From a virus: a stretch of 64,000 nucleotides of DNA. The translations under genes and the position numbers were made by a program. Below the pieces are notes generated by a model. It saw only the letters and a list, made by a program, of their open reading frames with translations, was not told where the DNA came from and made no database searches. The stretch's first letter is position 1. Each line of letters opens with the position of its first letter. The stretch spans positions 1 through 64,000 of the IMG/VR virus record IMGVR_UViG_3300028029_000001. One strand, written 5' to 3'. Of the stretch, positions 2,232 to 62,104 are shown one piece after another.

Positions 2232-4202
2232 TTAAATATTTGGGTCTATAATTAATCCTGTAAAGAATAATTTATTAATTTCAAAATTAGGAATAAATGA
2301 ATATTCAATAGCATAAGCATCTTGAATTATACTCACTTTTATATCCTGAAACCCAATAATTAAGTTATCAGTCGTTGCTCTCGCAGTTCTTCTTTGTAAG
2401 AAAGCTTTTAACCACTCTTCAACCATTACAGGTCTCAAAGTATGTCTATTAGGTCCAGAATTTTGATTTCCTAATAAATCAATCTTAGCATTTACTTCAA
2501 TTTCTTTATTTAACTGAGCCGCAATTCTTTTTAATTGTAGTGAGTGAGATGTTCCGTCTGCATTCAATACATTTCTATTTCTTTGTAATGTATTAATCCC
2601 TTGAACTACAATAAATGCTCCTAAATCTCCATCAAAAGCTGTTACTAAAACTCCATTATCTAAAGCTTGTTCTTTTTCTCTTTTGATTAGTGGGTGGGTT
2701 TCTGCAGCAAAATTAATCCCTTTGAAAGTTACTGGGGTATATGGTTCTAAACCGGCTACCCTACCTAAAACTGCAGCCATTTTCCATTCTGAAGATTTAG
2801 TTCTTAATCCGGTTCCTGCTACATTAGATGCAACTTCCACGCCACCGTGAACAACTATTACCCTATCTGTATCATAAGCTTTTGCTGCAGCAATAGATTC
2901 TGATACAAAAGTATTTTTATCATTACCTCCAGCAACTACCATAAATTTTTCAAATCTTGCGTCATCTACTAAATGAGACAATATAGCATTGTTGGTTGAA
3001 GAACTGTGTTGAGCTCCTGAATCTGGTGCCATTACAAAAGTGTAATCTAATTCTGCAATTGTATCTAATAATTGTGTTAAGTCTGACGGTGAAAAAGTTT
3101 GTGATCCTCCTTGGAATATACTTAAATCTACATAATTACTAATTGCTGTTGGGGTTATAACCCCTGTCCCTTGAATTACTGCTGTAGTGAGCTTAAAATT
3201 ATTATTAAAATCAAAATCAATATCCATCCAATCTTTTAATTCTTGGAAAGTGTTAAATTCTACAGAAGTTGATATTAACTCTGCTATTGAATTTGCAGCA
3301 TTCACCCCATCATAAGCTATATTATCAATTGCATCACCTGTAAAATTACCTCTATAAAATTTCATAAGAAATTTTGAAGGGTTAGAAGGTGATGATATTA
3401 TCTTATAACCAAGTCCTTGACTTAAATTATTTCCATTAACTCCATTTGCAATAGCATTAGTTGTAGAGGTTCCTGCCCATGTACCTGCCAATACTACAGT
3501 ATTACCATTTTGAGCATCTCCATAACCATTAACTCTAGTTAATATTATCTTTTCAGGAATTAAAGGATCTATTGAAGATATCCATTCATGAGTATTTGTA
3601 CCTAAATTAATATTAGTAACTAATGCAGTTGCAATATTAGCTAAGGTATCTCCTGGTGCTTGGTTATATGTACCGATAGATATTGCATTTAATAATAAAT
3701 CAAGGGTTTGTCCATTTGCTCCTAAAGCAGTTAATGTAACATCTCCTGTTCCGGGAGTTTCATCCGAGATTTTCCCATTTCCTACTAAACCTTCATGTTT
3801 TGCTTCTAAAGAAAACACACCCCCATTTCCTGTATCTACTAAACTTAATATATTTTTTGCAGTGACAGTTGATAGAGCTCTTATGTAGTGTACTTGAGAA
3901 GCACCGTTAATACCAGCACCAAAAGGTCTAAATAATGGTCCTGATAGGTCCCAATATTTACCCCCTCTAATAAAAGATCTAAAAGATCTAACATTATCAA
4001 ATGTATATATTGATTTTTTTTCTTGAGATAATGTACCGTTAATACCGGCACCACCACCAAATTCTGAATTTGGATTGGTATCAATAATTAATACGTTCCC
4101 AAAAGATAGTCCTAGTGAAGGGTTTGTTATCCCTGATTTAGTCTGAGTATAAACTCCAGGAAGCTTAATTAACTGACCATTGAAATTAAATTGTGTAGCC
4201 AT
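2232..4202 (-). CDS. contractile tail sheath protein
   Basis: 656 aa. N-terminal ...LPGVYTQT... and overall layout resemble phage sheath proteins. Immediately followed by the tube gene. Confidence 0.8.
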   Translation of the reverse strand: MATQFNFNGQLIKLPGVYTQTKSGITNPSLGLSFGNVLIIDTNPNSEFGGGAGINGTLSQEKKSIYTFDNVRSFRSFIRGGKYWDLSGPLFRPFGAGINGASQVHYIRALSTVTAKNILSLVDTGNGGVFSLEAKHEGLVGNGKISDETPGTGDVTLTALGANGQTLDLLLNAISIGTYNQAPGDTLANIATALVTNINLGTNTHEWISSIDPLIPEKIILTRVNGYGDAQNGNTVVLAGTWAGTSTTNAIANGVNGNNLSQGLGYKIISSPSNPSKFLMKFYRGNFTGDAIDNIAYDGVNAANSIAELISTSVEFNTFQELKDWMDIDFDFNNNFKLTTAVIQGTGVITPTAISNYVDLSIFQGGSQTFSPSDLTQLLDTIAELDYTFVMAPDSGAQHSSSTNNAILSHLVDDARFEKFMVVAGGNDKNTFVSESIAAAKAYDTDRVIVVHGGVEVASNVAGTGLRTKSSEWKMAAVLGRVAGLEPYTPVTFKGINFAAETHPLIKREKEQALDNGVLVTAFDGDLGAFIVVQGINTLQRNRNVLNADGTSHSLQLKRIAAQLNKEIEVNAKIDLLGNQNSGPNRHTLRPVMVEEWLKAFLQRRTARATTDNLIIGFQDIKVSIIQDAYAIEYSFIPNFEINKLFFTGLIIDPNI

Positions 4203-60571: not shown

Positions 60572-61621
60572 TTATTTTAGTGTTTCGTTTAATAATGTTT
60601 CCCCTTCTATATTAATTGATTTAACAATCTCATTCTTCTCTACAAACTCAATCCATCCAGATTTTATAGTTTCTTTGTTAAATCCTTTAAAATCTTTAAT
60701 TTCTGCATAATCAATATTAACTATTGGATTTTCTTCTTCACATTTTATTTCTATACCAGCTTTTTCAAAAATACTTTTGTTTAGAGATTTTATCTTTTCT
60801 CTGGTTCCTGTGAATTTGAACCTTATATTGTCTTTATTGTCTTTAAATTTTTCAACTTGTTCATTAATTTCTAAATCTGTCACCTTATTCAAATCTAAAT
60901 AAACTGTCTTATATTCTTTAAAAAGTGTCTTAATTTGTTTCCAAGACCCATCTTCATTGATTATAGTGAACCCTTTTTTATTGTTTTCTCCAAAATTTTT
61001 CTGTTTAAAAGCGCCTATATAAATTACGTTGTCAATAACTTGATAATCATGGTAATGCCCTACAAATACATTTTCAAATAATTTAAAAGAATTAATTCCT
61101 ATAGCTTCTTCTATTTTTGATCCATCATTATTTTTAACCCCATTTACAGCTATGTGAGTAAGCAATATATGTTTTAAATTTTTAAAATTCTCAATTTCTA
61201 AAACTGCTTTTTTTAGATATTCAGGGTAGATTTCTTTTTCATCAAAAAAAGGAATCATATGAACCATATAATCACCTTCTATAAAATTATCATAAGACCT
61301 TACTAATTCTTGAGATGGATTCATTGAAAATATATCTAAATAACTCCTTTCTGATTTATATGATGGTTTGTCATGATTCCCAGGAATAACTCTAAGTATT
61401 ATATCATAAGATTTTGCCATTTCCAATATAGACATCCACGCTTCTAAAACTTTTAATGTTTGTGATTTTCTTGAATCAAATATATCTCCTAAAACATAGA
61501 CTGTCTTAAAATCTAAAACTTGCGCTTCAGCAAATGTTTGATTTAAAAGATCTTTAGTCTCCTCTATATTATCACTGGTTAAATGTATATCTGTCAATAA
61601 AAATAATAATGGATTACTCAT
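60572..61621 (-). CDS. Mre11/SbcD-like nuclease (T4 gp47-like)
   Basis: 349 aa. Metallophosphoesterase motifs LTDIHL, VLGDIFD, IPGNHD, LLTHIAV, VGHYHD. Confidence 0.8.
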   Translation of the reverse strand: MSNPLLFLLTDIHLTSDNIEETKDLLNQTFAEAQVLDFKTVYVLGDIFDSRKSQTLKVLEAWMSILEMAKSYDIILRVIPGNHDKPSYKSERSYLDIFSMNPSQELVRSYDNFIEGDYMVHMIPFFDEKEIYPEYLKKAVLEIENFKNLKHILLTHIAVNGVKNNDGSKIEEAIGINSFKLFENVFVGHYHDYQVIDNVIYIGAFKQKNFGENNKKGFTIINEDGSWKQIKTLFKEYKTVYLDLNKVTDLEINEQVEKFKDNKDNIRFKFTGTREKIKSLNKSIFEKAGIEIKCEEENPIVNIDYAEIKDFKGFNKETIKSGWIEFVEKNEIVKSINIEGETLLNETLK

Positions 61622-61630
61622 ACTTTTAAT

Positions 61631-61666
61631 TTTAAAAATAAAGAGGGAGATTTTAAGCTCTCCCTC
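61631..61666 (-). terminator. rho-independent terminator closing the tmRNA-like coding piece
   Basis: Stem gagggaga/tctccctc (61643-61650 / 61659-61666), followed on the minus strand by TTTATTTTT. Confidence 0.7.
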
Positions 61667-61796
61667 AAACGGCTTACGATTCTTAGGCTGCAGTTGCTAC
61701 AGCTTGGAAAGGATTCATTTGTATAACTTTTGCGGTTATATTTTAACATACTCTTCTCTCGTCCTCTATCTTACAGTCAAAACCAAATACAGCCCC
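61643..61796 (-). ncRNA. ssrA: tmRNA-like coding piece (5' acceptor strand, tag reading frame)
   Basis: Starts GGGGCTGTATTTGGTTTTGAC (cf. E. coli GGGGCUGAUUCUGGAUUCGAC). Tag frame 61733-61683: GCA AAA ... GCA GCC TAA = AKVIQMNPFQAVATAA*. Confidence 0.55.
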
Positions 61797-61964
61797 AATT
61801 GCCTCGAATTTCATTACATGACTATTTCTCACACCAGGCCTATGAGATTTGTAACCACCACTTGAAGGTGTAGTTGAACTGACAACATTCAATTGTAGGG
61901 AAGGGTGCATCTTCGGGGGATGCTTAAAACTCACCACCTAATTCCGTATAGGCTTCCCAATTTG

Positions 61965-62030
61965 TGGAGCTGGAGGGATTCGAACCCTCGTCCAAATAAG
62001 CGACTAAACTTGATACTTACGAATATGTTG
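61965..62030 (-). ncRNA. ssrA: tmRNA-like acceptor piece (T-arm and 3' acceptor strand)
   Basis: ...TTTGGAC-GAGGG-TTCGAAT-CCCTC-CAGCTCC-A. The 3' strand pairs with the GGGGCTG at 61796-61790, including G3:U70. No matching 5' strand lies upstream. Confidence 0.55.
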
Positions 62031-62104
62031 GCCCCTTGAGTGGACTCGAACCACTGACTTTCTGCAAATTCTTGCAAGCTCTAACCAACTGAGCTACAAG
62101 GGGC
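62031..62104 (-). tRNA. tRNA-like gene with abnormal anticodon arm (4- or 6-nt loop in manual fold), G-1:C73 extension
   Basis: G-CCCCTTG-TA-GCTC-AGTTGGTTA-GAGC-TTGCAAGAATTTGCAG-AAAGTC-AGTGG-TTCGAGT-CCACT-CAAGGGG-C. The acceptor, D and T arms are canonical. Abuts the CDS stop (6 nt) and the tmRNA-like piece. Confidence 0.55.

What the first reader, a model, noticed from the sequence alone, without database searches (positions are those of the whole stretch)
61631..62030. Apparently circularly permuted (two-piece) tmRNA-like gene in a phage
Seen in sequence (minus strand):
- 61993-61965 reads GGAC GAGGG TTCGAAT CCCTC CAGCTCC A. This is the T-arm, 3' acceptor strand and discriminator typical of a tmRNA tRNA-like domain.
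- No complementary 5' strand exists upstream. A tRNA-like gene and a CDS stop occupy that space.
- The complement GGGGCTG lies about 170 nt DOWNSTREAM at 61796-61790. It is followed by TATTTGGTTTTGAC, very close to the conserved ssrA 5' end (E. coli GGGGCUGAUUCUGGAUUCGAC).
- The two strands form 7 bp including a G3:U70 wobble, the AlaRS identity pair.
- 63 nt after the GGGG start there is a short frame GCA AAA GTT ATA CAA ATG AAT CCT TTC CAA GCT GTA GCA ACT GCA GCC TAA (AKVIQMNPFQAVATAA*). It begins with an Ala codon and ends Ala-Ala-stop like a tmRNA tag. A strong terminator follows (61643-61666 plus T-run).
- Segments of the upstream piece can pair with the downstream piece in a P2-like way: TAGTC/GACTG, TATC/GATA, CATATTC/GAGTATG.
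- The whole stretch is visibly GC-richer than the flanking DNA, and the track ORF 61743..61937 is probably spurious.

Established knowledge: the gene order 3' acceptor piece, then spacer, then 5' piece plus tag is the permutation known from two-piece tmRNAs of alpha-proteobacteria, some beta-proteobacteria and cyanobacteria.

Inference: I am not aware of this arrangement being described for a Bacteroidota-type phage. The tag differs from the usual ...YALAA ending, so it may rescue ribosomes without the normal degradation signal. It could act, for example, against host nuclease-based defences that create non-stop mRNAs.
Basis: partly seen in the sequence, partly recalled or inferred. Interest (0 to 1): 0.9.

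Follow-up and report, generated by a model that had tools for sequence, protein, structure and literature searches.

The report
Two-piece tmRNA gene in Bacteroidota phage
A large phage that probably infects Bacteroidota carries a genuine but stripped-down "circularly permuted" ribosome-rescue RNA (tmRNA) gene; standard tools detect it and related phages already have it annotated, so it is a real but only moderately novel find.

Summary
ARAGORN calls a permuted tmRNA with the tag AKVIQMNPFQAVATAA*. Rfam's tmRNA_permuted model (RF04321) matches 61683-62024(-) end to end at 60.6 bits (gathering score 47, E 3e-9).

Homologues with the same gene order occur in Chryseobacterium phage MA9V-3, which has the closest portal protein. 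They also occur in two uncultured phage contigs and in crAss-like Suoliviridae (cr114_1, cr60_1). Across 7 genes the acceptor stem and the adjacent P2 helix pair in 100% of cells, with 7 compensatory pairs. G3:U70 and the C-terminal Ala-Ala-stop never vary.

The tRNA-like halves match one-piece Bacteroidota tmRNAs. The 30-nt 3' end is identical and nearly restricted to that phylum. No alpha, beta or cyano lineage model reaches its threshold. The gene has no room for pseudoknots: a 9-bp intermolecular helix sits where PK1 would be, and the mature RNA is about 230 nt against about 400 nt.

The arrangement is not undescribed. GenBank annotates these homologues as tmRNA, and a 2022 supplementary table lists crAss and Cellulophaga phage tmRNAs as "Permuted".

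Verdict: a real gene and a new member of a known kind. It may belong to an unanalysed independent permutation lineage. Function in infection is inferred, not shown.

The parts
62031..62103 (-). tRNA-shaped element directly upstream. Its anticodon loop is only 4-6 nt, so it is not a normal decoder. Its 3' end abuts the acceptor piece, so it probably acts as a processing signal that defines the 5' end of that piece.
   Evidence: Rfam tRNA model, 44.8 bits. ARAGORN reports 'tRNA-??? anticodon (aa)'. The fold is a cloverleaf with a 4-nt loop, z -2.25. The processing role is inferred.
61965..62030 (-). Acceptor piece, 66 nt, with CCA not encoded. It holds the 3' strands of P2, the T-arm, the 3' acceptor strand CAGCTCC and the discriminator A (61965).
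   Evidence: RF04321 alignment; coordinates. The 30-nt 3' end is identical to one-piece Bacteroidota tmRNAs. The 5' boundary is inferred from the end of the tRNA-like element.
62021..62029 (-). 3' strand (AACATATTC) of the distal intermolecular helix. It pairs with 61745-61753.
   Evidence: Cofold. An equivalent 6-11 bp helix of different sequence ends 9-14 nt before the resume codon in the six members cofolded, and cr60_1 has the cr114_1 sequence by eye.
61996..62000 (-). 3' strand (CTTAT) of helix P2a. It pairs with GTAAG at 61770-61774.
   Evidence: Four of the 5 pairs show compensatory changes across 7 genes. The register was chosen by hand.
61973..61989 (-). T-arm: GAGGG TTCGAAT CCCTC.
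   Evidence: The stem is invariant in all 7 genes.
61797..61964 (-). Intervening spacer, 168 nt, presumably excised and discarded.
   Evidence: Its fold is no more stable than shuffles, z +0.75. No Rfam or tRNA match. In homologues the spacer is 54-159 nt and shows no evident sequence similarity on inspection. cr114_1 holds a tRNA-His in its spacer.
61634..61796 (-). Coding piece, about 155-163 nt. In order it holds the 5' acceptor strand, the D-loop analogue, the 5' strands of P2, the tag frame and the terminator.
61790..61796 (-). 5' acceptor strand GGGGCTG. It forms 7 bp with 61966-61972, including G3:U70.
   Evidence: Read directly from the sequence. Positions 5-7 covary with their partners in homologues (GGGGGTG/CACCTCC, GGGGCAT/ATGCTCC).
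61776..61789 (-). D-loop analogue TATTTGGTTTTGAC.
   Evidence: RF04321 alignment. The form GG(A/T)TTTGAC is shared with Bacteroidales one-piece tmRNAs.
61745..61753 (-). 5' strand (GAGTATGTT) of the distal intermolecular helix. It lies 11 nt before the resume codon, in the place PK1 occupies in one-piece tmRNAs.
   Evidence: The PK1 segment of Bacteroidota tmRNAs is absent in the alignment.
61683..61733 (-). Tag reading frame. The resume codon is GCA (61731-61733), the peptide is AKVIQMNPFQAVATAA, and the stop is TAA (61683-61685).
   Evidence: ARAGORN and translation. Homologous tags are GEVIEMNPVSASFLAA, GKVVNMNQVGMRKAA and GNVIDINKYVAKLEVAA.
61634..61666 (-). Intrinsic terminator: an 8-bp stem, an 8-nt loop and a T-run. 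It marks the 3' end of the coding piece.

Best explanation
This is a functional phage-encoded two-piece (circularly permuted) tmRNA gene.

Proposed pathway:
1. One precursor is transcribed, probably together with the upstream 429-aa gene. It ends at the terminator at 61666-61634.
2. Host tRNA-processing enzymes cut it. Removing the tRNA-shaped element frees the 5' end of the acceptor piece at 62030. RNase P cuts 5' of G61796. The 3' end is trimmed after A61965 and CCA is added. The 168-nt spacer is discarded.
3. The 66-nt acceptor piece and the roughly 160-nt coding piece stay together through the 7-bp acceptor stem and an interrupted P2 helix of about 21 bp.
4. Host AlaRS charges the RNA with alanine, using G3:U70 and A73.
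5. With host SmpB and EF-Tu it enters ribosomes stalled on broken mRNAs.
6. Translation resumes at GCA 61733, adds AKVIQMNPFQAVATAA, and stops at TAA. This frees the ribosome.

The terminal Ala-Ala probably still marks the product for proteolysis. The benefit to the phage is presumably to keep ribosomes available while host and phage mRNAs are being cut and the host's supply of tmRNA falls.

What is shown: the sequence anatomy, the model matches, the conservation and the covariation. What is inferred: processing, charging, tagging and the benefit to the phage.
For: - Detection: ARAGORN calls a permuted tmRNA with this tag. RF04321 matches the full model at 60.6 bits, gathering score 47, E 2.9e-9.
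- Homologues: the same architecture occurs in independent genomes. These are L005 (66.2 bits), L016 (56.3), the cultured Chryseobacterium phage MA9V-3 (64.7 bits, annotated as tmRNA in GenBank), and crAss-like cr114_1 (50.9), L020 (54.9) and cr60_1 (ARAGORN only).
- Covariation: across 7 genes, all 17 pairs in the acceptor stem, P2a and T-stem are paired in 100% of cells. Seven pairs have compensatory changes, G3:U70 is invariant, and versions of the structure slid by 1-3 columns pair in only 44-56% of cells.
- P2 helix: the six members cofolded each have a colinear intermolecular P2 that starts beside the tRNA-like domain, 21-23 bp in the five for which pairs were counted. A distal helix ends 9-14 nt before the resume codon in those six; cr60_1, read by eye, has the cr114_1 sequence.
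- Tag: the tags share x-[KEN]-V-[IV]-x-[MI]-N with synonymous codon differences, and all end in Ala-Ala-stop.
- Resume-codon context: TAA(A/C)(C/T)|G, as in Bacteroidota one-piece tmRNAs.
- Other: a terminator follows the tag. The gene sits in the replication and nucleotide-metabolism module in the window, in L016 and in MA9V-3.
Against: - There are no RNA-end, charging or tagging data.
- For the window alone, the P2 pairing energy is not significant against shuffles (41 of 300 shuffles fold as well). For MA9V-3 it is not better than shuffles at all.
- The P2a register in the covariation count was chosen by hand.
- There is no PK1, which is important in E. coli tmRNA.
- CCA is not encoded.
- The RF04321 scores (51-66 bits) are well below that of an alpha-type phage control (93.6 bits).
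- No promoter was identified.
- SmpB was not looked for in the phage.
- The family is rare in IMG/VR and JGI metagenomes.
Confidence: 0.8

Rival explanations
1. The RNA is made and binds SmpB or the ribosome, but its main role is to compete with or replace the host tmRNA. It could titrate SmpB, or it could swap the host tag (GENNYALAA type) for a phage-specific peptide with a different fate, for example one recognised by a phage or host adaptor. Ribosome rescue alone would not be the point.
For: - The phage tags are longer (13-17 aa) than host tags (9-10 aa). They carry their own conserved N-terminal motif, VIxMN in subfamily A and V(T/M)DYT in the crAss-like subfamily.
- The tRNA-like halves copy the host type, so the RNA would compete for the same SmpB and AlaRS.
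- A phage tmRNA that is only a tRNA-like domain (DS6A) is reported to resemble a molecule that inhibits tmRNA (PMC4131195; PMC11915505).
Against: - The complete tag frame with invariant Ala-Ala-stop points to normal tagging.
- Nothing here measures competition.
- Conservation of GTTAT in the tag may be partly RNA-level: in 3 of 4 subfamily A genes it pairs with the ATAAC before the resume codon.
Confidence: 0.12
2. The locus is non-functional debris. On this view it is fragments of a host ssrA gene picked up by recombination, such as an attP-like 3' fragment, that happen to lie near a GGGGCTG motif. Tolerant search tools then mistake them for a gene.
For: - The 30-nt 3' end is identical to host-type tmRNAs.
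- Some IMG/VR contigs (L002, L006, L010, L003) carry this 3' fragment with no 5' piece or tag nearby.
- Fragments of ssrA are known in prophages (PMC9004378).
Against: - Both halves, the tag frame and the terminator are kept in at least 7 divergent genes from unrelated phage groups.
- Compensatory changes occur in the acceptor stem and in P2a.
- The tag codons show synonymous variation.
- No integrase was seen among the window genes that were scanned, and the surrounding genes are a replication/recombination module.
Confidence: 0.04
3. The permuted order is an assembly or genome-permutation artefact of an ordinary one-piece ssrA gene.
For: None specific. Phage genomes are often circularly permuted, and metagenomic contigs can be misjoined.
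Against: - Both pieces lie within about 430 nt, on one strand, inside a contig. Intact genes flank them on both sides.
- The same order is found in independent assemblies and in a complete genome of a cultured phage.
- The pseudoknot region of a one-piece gene is absent altogether, not merely relocated.
Confidence: 0.01

Closest known systems
Permuted tmRNA genes of Chryseobacterium phage MA9V-3 (PV245944.1) and of uncultured phage contigs IMGVR_UViG_3300025476_000088 and IMGVR_UViG_3300006734_000040
   Same: - Same gene order, and the same pseudoknot-free layout with an interrupted P2.
- The tag motif x-[KEN]-V-[IV]-x-[MI]-N...AA-stop.
- A terminator directly after the tag.
- Location in the replication module where the neighbours were examined (the window, L016 and MA9V-3).
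- MA9V-3 is also the nearest portal relative, at 44% identity.
   Different: - The spacer is 54-79 nt in these genes, against 168 nt here.
- The resume codon is Gly (GGA or GGC) in them and Ala (GCA) here.
- The P2 sequences are unrelated.
- Only the window has a tRNA-shaped element with a defective anticodon loop directly upstream. L005 has a normal tRNA-Gln there.
- The post-tag loop GAAG(T/C)ATAGTA of L005 and L016 is missing in the window.
Permuted tmRNA genes of crAss-like phages (Suoliviridae: cr114_1 NC_055897, cr60_1 NC_055891, and others; annotated 'transfer-messenger RNA, SsrA' in RefSeq)
   Same: - Permuted order.
- A nearly identical T-arm.
- A Bacteroidota-type D-loop analogue.
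- The same resume-codon context.
- No pseudoknots.
- Ala-Ala-stop at the end of the tag.
   Different: - A different tag family: GN..(Y/F)V(T/M)DYT..AA.
- The acceptor stem is GGGGCAT/ATGCTCC.
- There is a tRNA inside the spacer (cr114_1) and a tRNA or tRNA-like minihelix after the coding piece.
- They occur in podovirus-type Crassvirales, not in a myovirus.
Two-piece tmRNAs of Alphaproteobacteria, some Betaproteobacteria and Cyanobacteria, and their phages (Rfam RF01849-51; for example Pelagibacter phage Mosig and the OM43 phage Melnitz)
   Same: - Circular permutation with the acceptor piece first.
- Processing by tRNA enzymes into two base-paired RNAs (established knowledge; PMC11915505).
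- Carried by a large lytic phage (PMC9004378).
   Different: - The window reaches the gathering score only for the general model RF04321, not for any lineage model. Mosig matches both RF04321 (93.6 bits) and alpha_tmRNA (67.6 bits).
- The window's tRNA-like halves match Bacteroidota one-piece tmRNAs instead.
- The likely host phylum uses one-piece tmRNA.
One-piece tmRNA of Bacteroidota (Rfam RF00023)
   Same: - The 30-nt T-arm plus acceptor 3' end is identical.
- CCA is not encoded.
- The D-loop analogue is GG(A/T)TT(T/C)GAC.
- The resume-codon context is the same.
- The tag ends in Ala-Ala.
- L005 and L016 keep the post-tag loop GAAGTATAGTA.
   Different: - The host gene has standard order, is 355-404 nt long and has PK1-PK4. 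Its tag follows G[END]xN[YF]A[LM]AA.
- The phage gene is permuted, gives about 230 nt of mature RNA, lacks the pseudoknot segments and has a 16-aa tag.

Membership tests
tmRNA (any form) | A tRNA-like domain: a 7-bp acceptor stem with G3:U70, discriminator A73, and a T-arm with a GGUUCGAnUCC-type loop. | tested here: met
   Read from the sequence. G3:U70 and the T-stem are invariant, and acceptor positions 5-7 covary, across 7 genes.
tmRNA (any form) | A D-loop analogue, GGnUUCGAC-like, following the 5' acceptor strand. | tested here: met
   TGGTTTTGAC aligns to the consensus UGGuUUCGAC. The TTTGAC variant is shared with Bacteroidales tmRNAs.
tmRNA (any form) | A short internal reading frame with no start codon. 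It resumes at a defined codon and ends in a stop, and the tag ends ...AA. | tested here: met
   AKVIQMNPFQAVATAA*. The frame and the terminal AA are conserved in all homologues.
tmRNA (any form) | Helix P2 linking the tRNA-like domain to the mRNA-like domain. | tested here: met
   P2a covaries, with 4 of 5 pairs compensatory (register chosen by hand). The six members cofolded each show an extended colinear intermolecular P2 (21-23 bp in the five counted), but single-sequence energies are only weakly better than shuffles, p 0.02-0.14, and not better for MA9V-3.
tmRNA (any form) | Pseudoknot PK1 upstream of the resume codon, and usually PK2-PK4 downstream. | tested here: not met
   Only 42 nt separate GAC from the resume codon, and P2 strands occupy 31 of them. 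The PK1 segment of Bacteroidota tmRNAs is a gap in alignment A1. Only a terminator follows the tag. Reduced pseudoknot sets are known in other tmRNAs, so this feature is common rather than strictly defining (own knowledge).
tmRNA (any form) | Alanylation by AlaRS, binding of SmpB, and trans-translation activity. | not testable with these tools
   This needs biochemistry or in vivo work. The identity elements are present.
Permuted (two-piece) tmRNA, Rfam RF04321 | Gene order of acceptor piece, intervening sequence, coding piece, and a score at or above the curated threshold. | tested here: met
   60.6 bits against a gathering score of 47, over the full model 1-213. ARAGORN flags it as permuted, tmRNA*.
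Permuted (two-piece) tmRNA, Rfam RF04321 | Two separate mature RNAs produced by processing. | not testable with these tools
   No transcript data are available.
Alpha-, beta- or cyano-type permuted tmRNA lineages (RF01849, RF01850, RF01851) | A match to a lineage-specific covariance model at its gathering score. | tested here: not met
   No such match appears in the gathering-threshold scan of the window. None is listed at E<=10 either, though lower-scoring hits from the same clan are hidden. The control Pelagibacter phage Mosig matches RF01849 at 67.6 bits. I verified that RF01849 is in the library. For RF01850 and RF01851 this is assumed.
Standard one-piece tmRNA (RF00023) | Colinear order of 5' acceptor strand, tag, pseudoknots and 3' acceptor strand, with a score at or above the gathering score. 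| tested here: not met
   Only a 5'-truncated partial match of 38 bits, below the gathering score of 47, over the acceptor piece. The order is permuted.

The most novel reading that the evidence does not exclude
These genes may represent a further, independent origin of two-piece tmRNA. On this reading it arose from the one-piece Bacteroidota gene, not from the alpha, beta or cyano lineages. It is carried only by phages, both myoviruses and Crassvirales, whose hosts keep a one-piece tmRNA. It has been reduced to a pseudoknot-free minimal form, in which an intermolecular helix takes the place of PK1 and flanking or embedded tRNA(-like) units supply the processing sites.
Probability: 0.5. Interest if true: 0.6.

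Novelty: new member of a known kind. Interest (0 to 1): 0.42.

Why it matters
The finding adds a verified phage-borne two-piece tmRNA in a host phylum that uses one-piece tmRNA itself.

It also brings together a small family that automated pipelines have annotated but that nobody appears to have analysed: MA9V-3, two uncultured phages and crAss-like Suoliviridae.

If the family is an independent permutation, it is a natural experiment in how little of tmRNA is needed. The remaining parts would be the tRNA-like domain, P2, a tag and one hairpin.

It also raises the question of why abundant gut and environmental phages invest in ribosome rescue. MA9V-3 and its Chryseobacterium host are in culture, so the question can be tested.

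The practical lesson for annotation is that ORF calls across such loci (61743-61937 here) are likely to be spurious.

Tried and rejected
- Megablast of window 40000-64000 against INPHARED found no match.
- The search for related loci with the SbcD-like neighbour found no relatives in IMG/VR.
- Blastn of the 601-nt locus found only a 41-nt hit to cr114_1.
- Gapped pattern scans of IMG/VR added only L020, L029 and L030. A pattern anchored on the tag added nothing in IMG/VR.
- The same tag-anchored pattern in JGI metagenomes returned only duplicates of L005 and L016, plus six hits (L023-L028) in which neither ARAGORN nor Rfam found a tmRNA.
- I tested whether the spacer is a structured RNA or holds a hidden tRNA. 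The fold has z +0.75 and there is no Rfam or ARAGORN hit, so I rejected this.
- I tested whether the spacer ORF 61743-61937 codes for a protein. It has no PHROG match and the spacer is not conserved, so I rejected this.
- Automatic MAFFT alignment of re-joined tRNA-like domains put the 5' strands out of register (A2). I replaced it with fixed-length constructs (A3).
- No sigma-70-like promoter lies between the upstream CDS and the tRNA-like element. I did not scan for Bacteroidota-type promoters.
- I did not scan the phage for SmpB.
Full report
**1. Observation**

- A tRNA-shaped gene lies at 62103-62031.
- Next comes CAACATATTC...CTTATTT GGAC GAGGG TTCGAAT CCCTC CAGCTCC A, ending at 61965.
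- A 168-nt spacer follows.
- GGGGCTG TATTTGGTTTTGAC starts at 61796.
- 42 nt further on is the frame GCA AAA GTT ... GCA GCC TAA (61733-61683), which translates to AKVIQMNPFQAVATAA*.
- An intrinsic terminator lies at 61666-61643 with a T-run.
- GC content is 0.44-0.47 across 61800-62099, against 0.25-0.30 in the flanks.

The two acceptor strands form 7 pairs with G3:U70, and the discriminator is A. CCA is not encoded, because CAA follows.

**2. Detector tests**

ARAGORN reports a permuted tmRNA (tmRNA*) at 61592-62057(-) with exactly that tag. Rfam 15's tmRNA_permuted model (RF04321) matches 61683-62024(-) over all 213 model positions. The score is 60.6 bits against a gathering score of 47, with E 2.9e-9 for the whole window.

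No other tmRNA family reaches its threshold. The one-piece model RF00023 gives only a truncated 38-bit match over the acceptor piece. As a control, the alpha-type Pelagibacter phage Mosig gene matches both RF04321 (93.6 bits) and alpha_tmRNA RF01849 (67.6 bits). So the lineage models are in the library, and the window does not fit them.

**3. What the phage is**

The window encodes a tail sheath, portal, RIIA, NrdA, helicase, RecA and SbcCD-like proteins, so it is a large myovirus. It has no near-identical relative in INPHARED. The nearest portal proteins are from Chryseobacterium phage MA9V-3 (44% identity) and from Bacteroides phages DAC19-23 and SJC03 (40%). A Bacteroidota host is therefore plausible.

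**4. Homologues**

The exact 30-mer GGACGAGGGTTCGAATCCCTCCAGCTCCAC occurs in 18 IMG/VR loci. Most of these are ordinary one-piece tmRNAs with tags such as GENNYALAA. Two are permuted genes with the window's layout:
- L005: tag GKVVNMNQVGMRKAA, 66.2 bits.
- L016: tag GEVIEMNPVSASFLAA, 56.3 bits.

L005 also encodes a portal 36% identical to the window's.

The cultured phage MA9V-3 has a GenBank-annotated 'transfer-messenger RNA SsrA'. ARAGORN calls it permuted (tag GNVIDINKYVAKLEVAA) and RF04321 scores it at 64.7 bits.

A second subfamily sits in crAss-like Suoliviridae:
- cr114_1: tag GNFYVTDYTRIAA, 50.9 bits.
- L020: tag GNTMFVTDYTGLVAA, 54.9 bits.
- cr60_1: tag GNTSYVMDYTRLAA, found by ARAGORN only.
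- L029 and L030: near-identical copies of cr114_1.

Scans anchored on the tag found nothing further in IMG/VR or JGI metagenomes. The family is therefore rare in those collections.

**5. Structure and covariation**

I joined the tRNA-like halves and the adjacent helix of 7 genes into fixed-length constructs (alignment A3). Results:
- All 17 pairs of the acceptor stem, P2a and T-stem are standard pairs in all 119 cells.
- Seven pairs carry compensatory changes. In the acceptor stem these are 5:68 (C-G to G-C), 6:67 (U-A to A-U) and 7:66 (G-C to U-A). Four of the five P2a pairs also change on both sides.
- G3:U70 is invariant.
- When the 3' partners are slid by 1-3 columns, only 44-56% of cells pair, and at most one pair shows a compensatory change.

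Caveat: I chose the P2a register by hand.

Cofolding the 42-44 nt between GAC and the resume codon with the 5' part of the acceptor piece gives a colinear, interrupted intermolecular helix in each of the six members cofolded. It has 21-23 pairs in the five for which pairs were counted, and it starts right beside the tRNA-like domain. Single-sequence energies beat shuffles only modestly, with p 0.02-0.14. For MA9V-3 they do not beat shuffles, because its purine-rich and pyrimidine-rich strands make shuffles pair well too.

The most distal segment is a 6-11 bp helix with a different sequence in each phage:
- Window: GAGTATGTT/AACATATTC, 61753-61745 with 62029-62021.
- L005: AGAATTCAAT/ATTGAATTT.
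- L016: TGAATC/GATTCA.
- MA9V-3: GACGAA/TTCGTC.
- cr114_1: GGTCAAT/ATTGACT.

In the six members cofolded it ends 9-14 nt before the resume codon, and cr60_1, read by eye, carries the cr114_1 sequence.

An alignment with Bacteroidota one-piece tmRNAs shows the PK1 segment as a gap in the phage genes. After the tag there is only a hairpin or terminator. The mature RNA would therefore be about 66+3 nt plus about 160 nt. Host genes are 355-404 nt. None of the four pseudoknots has room. The distal helix occupies the PK1 position. That it acts as a functional substitute for PK1 is my inference.

**6. Origin**

Nearly all are Bacteroidota: Bacteroidales, Flavobacteriales, Chitinophagales, Cytophagales and Saprospiraceae. 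ARAGORN on 60 of those loci found only one-piece tmRNAs and none permuted; nearly all carry tags of the form G[END]xN[YF]A[LM]AA.

Further resemblances to Bacteroidota genes:
- The D-loop analogue GG(A/T)TTTGAC and the resume-codon context TAA(A/C)(C/T)|G are shared.
- The first 26 nt of the MA9V-3 gene (GGGGGTGACCGGTTTCGACAGCAGGA) differ at 2 positions from a Flavobacteriaceae one-piece gene (GGGGCTGACCGGTTTCGACAGCAAGA).
- L005 and L016 keep the loop motif GAAG(T/C)ATAGTA, which follows the tag in Bacteroidales and Flavobacteriaceae tmRNAs.

Together with the failure of the lineage models, this suggests descent from a Bacteroidota one-piece gene through a separate permutation. Later gene conversion with the host gene cannot be excluded. 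The sequences are too short and too few for a firm phylogeny.

**7. Likely mechanism (inferred)**

The CDS stop at 62111 is separated from the tRNA-shaped element by only 7 nt, and no sigma-70-like promoter lies there. The locus is therefore probably transcribed together with the upstream gene and ends at the terminator.

The tRNA-shaped element scores 44.8 bits but has only a 4-6 nt anticodon loop. It cannot decode normally. Its 3' end is one nucleotide from the distal P2 helix, so its excision would create the 5' end of the acceptor piece. In L005 a normal tRNA-Gln occupies that place. In cr114_1 a tRNA-His lies inside the spacer, and tRNA(-like) units follow the coding piece.

RNase P would cut 5' of G61796. 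3' trimming and CCA addition would finish the acceptor piece. The pair would then be alanylated and used with host SmpB and EF-Tu, and would tag stalled chains with AKVIQMNPFQAVATAA.

All tags keep Ala-Ala-stop.

The conserved N-terminal tag motif shows synonymous codon variation (GTT/GTA, ATA/ATT, AAT/AAC). This is consistent with selection on the peptide. However, in 3 of 4 genes GTTAT also pairs with the ATAAC before the resume codon, so RNA-level constraint contributes too.

In the window, in L016 and in MA9V-3 the gene sits in the replication and nucleotide-metabolism module. That fits expression while host nucleic acids are being turned over.

**8. What is already known**

Two-piece tmRNA is established for Alphaproteobacteria, some Betaproteobacteria and Cyanobacteria (PMC11915505). 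Phage copies are described for marine pelagiphages and cyanophages and for the OM43 phage Melnitz (PMC9004378).

Table S1 of that paper, built from ARAGORN calls, already lists crAss phages (cr114_1, cr115_1, cr10_1, cr50_1, cr273_1) and Cellulophaga phage phi4:1 as 'Permuted'. RefSeq and GenBank annotate tmRNA in several crAss-like phages and in MA9V-3.

The 2025 tmRNA database counts 48 permuted genes in Bacteroidota assemblies without comment. It calls a tRNA inside an intervening sequence 'unique' for one archaeal-MAG case.

My searches for text on two-piece tmRNA in Bacteroidota phages found none.

The gene is therefore a new member of a known kind. What has not been analysed is the lineage-level picture: Bacteroidota origin, loss of all pseudoknots, and tRNA punctuation.

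**9. Verdict**

The novelty was overstated. Function is inferred from anatomy and conservation only. Interest is moderate.

Noticed in passing
window 62031-62103 (-): A tRNA-shaped gene (Rfam tRNA, 44.8 bits) whose anticodon arm has only a 4-6 nt loop (UGCAA GAAU UUGCA, or UUGCA AGAAUU UGCAG). It cannot decode in the usual way. It abuts the tmRNA acceptor piece. It could be a processing signal, a decayed tRNA or a decoy.
   Followed up: partly
window 41842-41915 (-): A second phage tRNA (55.2 bits, stable cloverleaf with z -3.4) that has an 8-nt anticodon loop, UAAGUAGU. ARAGORN reports a 4-base anticodon 'agta'. Possible readings are a quadruplet or frameshift decoder, or a variant that evades anticodon nucleases. 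Both tRNA genes in this window are non-canonical.
   Followed up: partly
L001 (cr114_1) 3045-3117 and 3340-3380; L029 and L030; L020 625-690: In crAss-like phages an intact tRNA-His(GTG) sits inside the intervening spacer of the permuted tmRNA gene. A tRNA or a T-arm/acceptor minihelix follows the coding piece directly. The 2025 tmRNA database paper describes a tRNA inside an intervening sequence as unique to one archaeal-MAG entry.
   Followed up: partly
L002 3059-3088, L006 2110-2139, L010, L003 (IMG/VR contigs): The exact Bacteroidota tmRNA 3' 30-mer is followed at once by a tRNA-Gln, inside tRNA clusters. No 5' acceptor piece or tag frame lies anywhere in the fetched DNA. This could be an acceptor-piece-only element, an attachment-site remnant, or a coding piece encoded far away.
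   Followed up: partly
L001 1163-1291 and 2521-2688; L155 331-432: A Hatchet ribozyme (86 bits) and a RAGATH-9 RNA (154 bits) lie just upstream of the cr114_1 tmRNA. A RAGATH-20 RNA (122 bits) lies upstream of the cr60_1 tmRNA. Together these form a dense cluster of structured RNAs in crAss-like phages.
   Followed up: no
L152 (Cellulophaga phage Calle_1) 1172-1533: Cellulophaga phages Calle_1-3, phi38:1 and phi40:1 all match the probe; in Calle_1, the one examined, the gene is a one-piece tmRNA (RF00023, 86.6 bits). ARAGORN predicts a long atypical tag, AQIEANMEAVNAILNLEVAVGV, that does not end in Ala-Ala. Bacteroidota phages therefore carry both gene forms.
   Followed up: no
L155 (cr60_1) 639-1085: ARAGORN calls a permuted tmRNA here (tag GNTSYVMDYTRLAA), and RefSeq annotates it. 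RF04321 does not reach its gathering score. The general Rfam model therefore misses part of this phage family.
   Followed up: no
window 62111-63400 (-): The 429-aa protein that is probably co-transcribed with the tRNA-like element and the tmRNA has no Pfam or PHROG match. It has an acidic, Lys/Glu-rich C-terminal region.
   Followed up: partly
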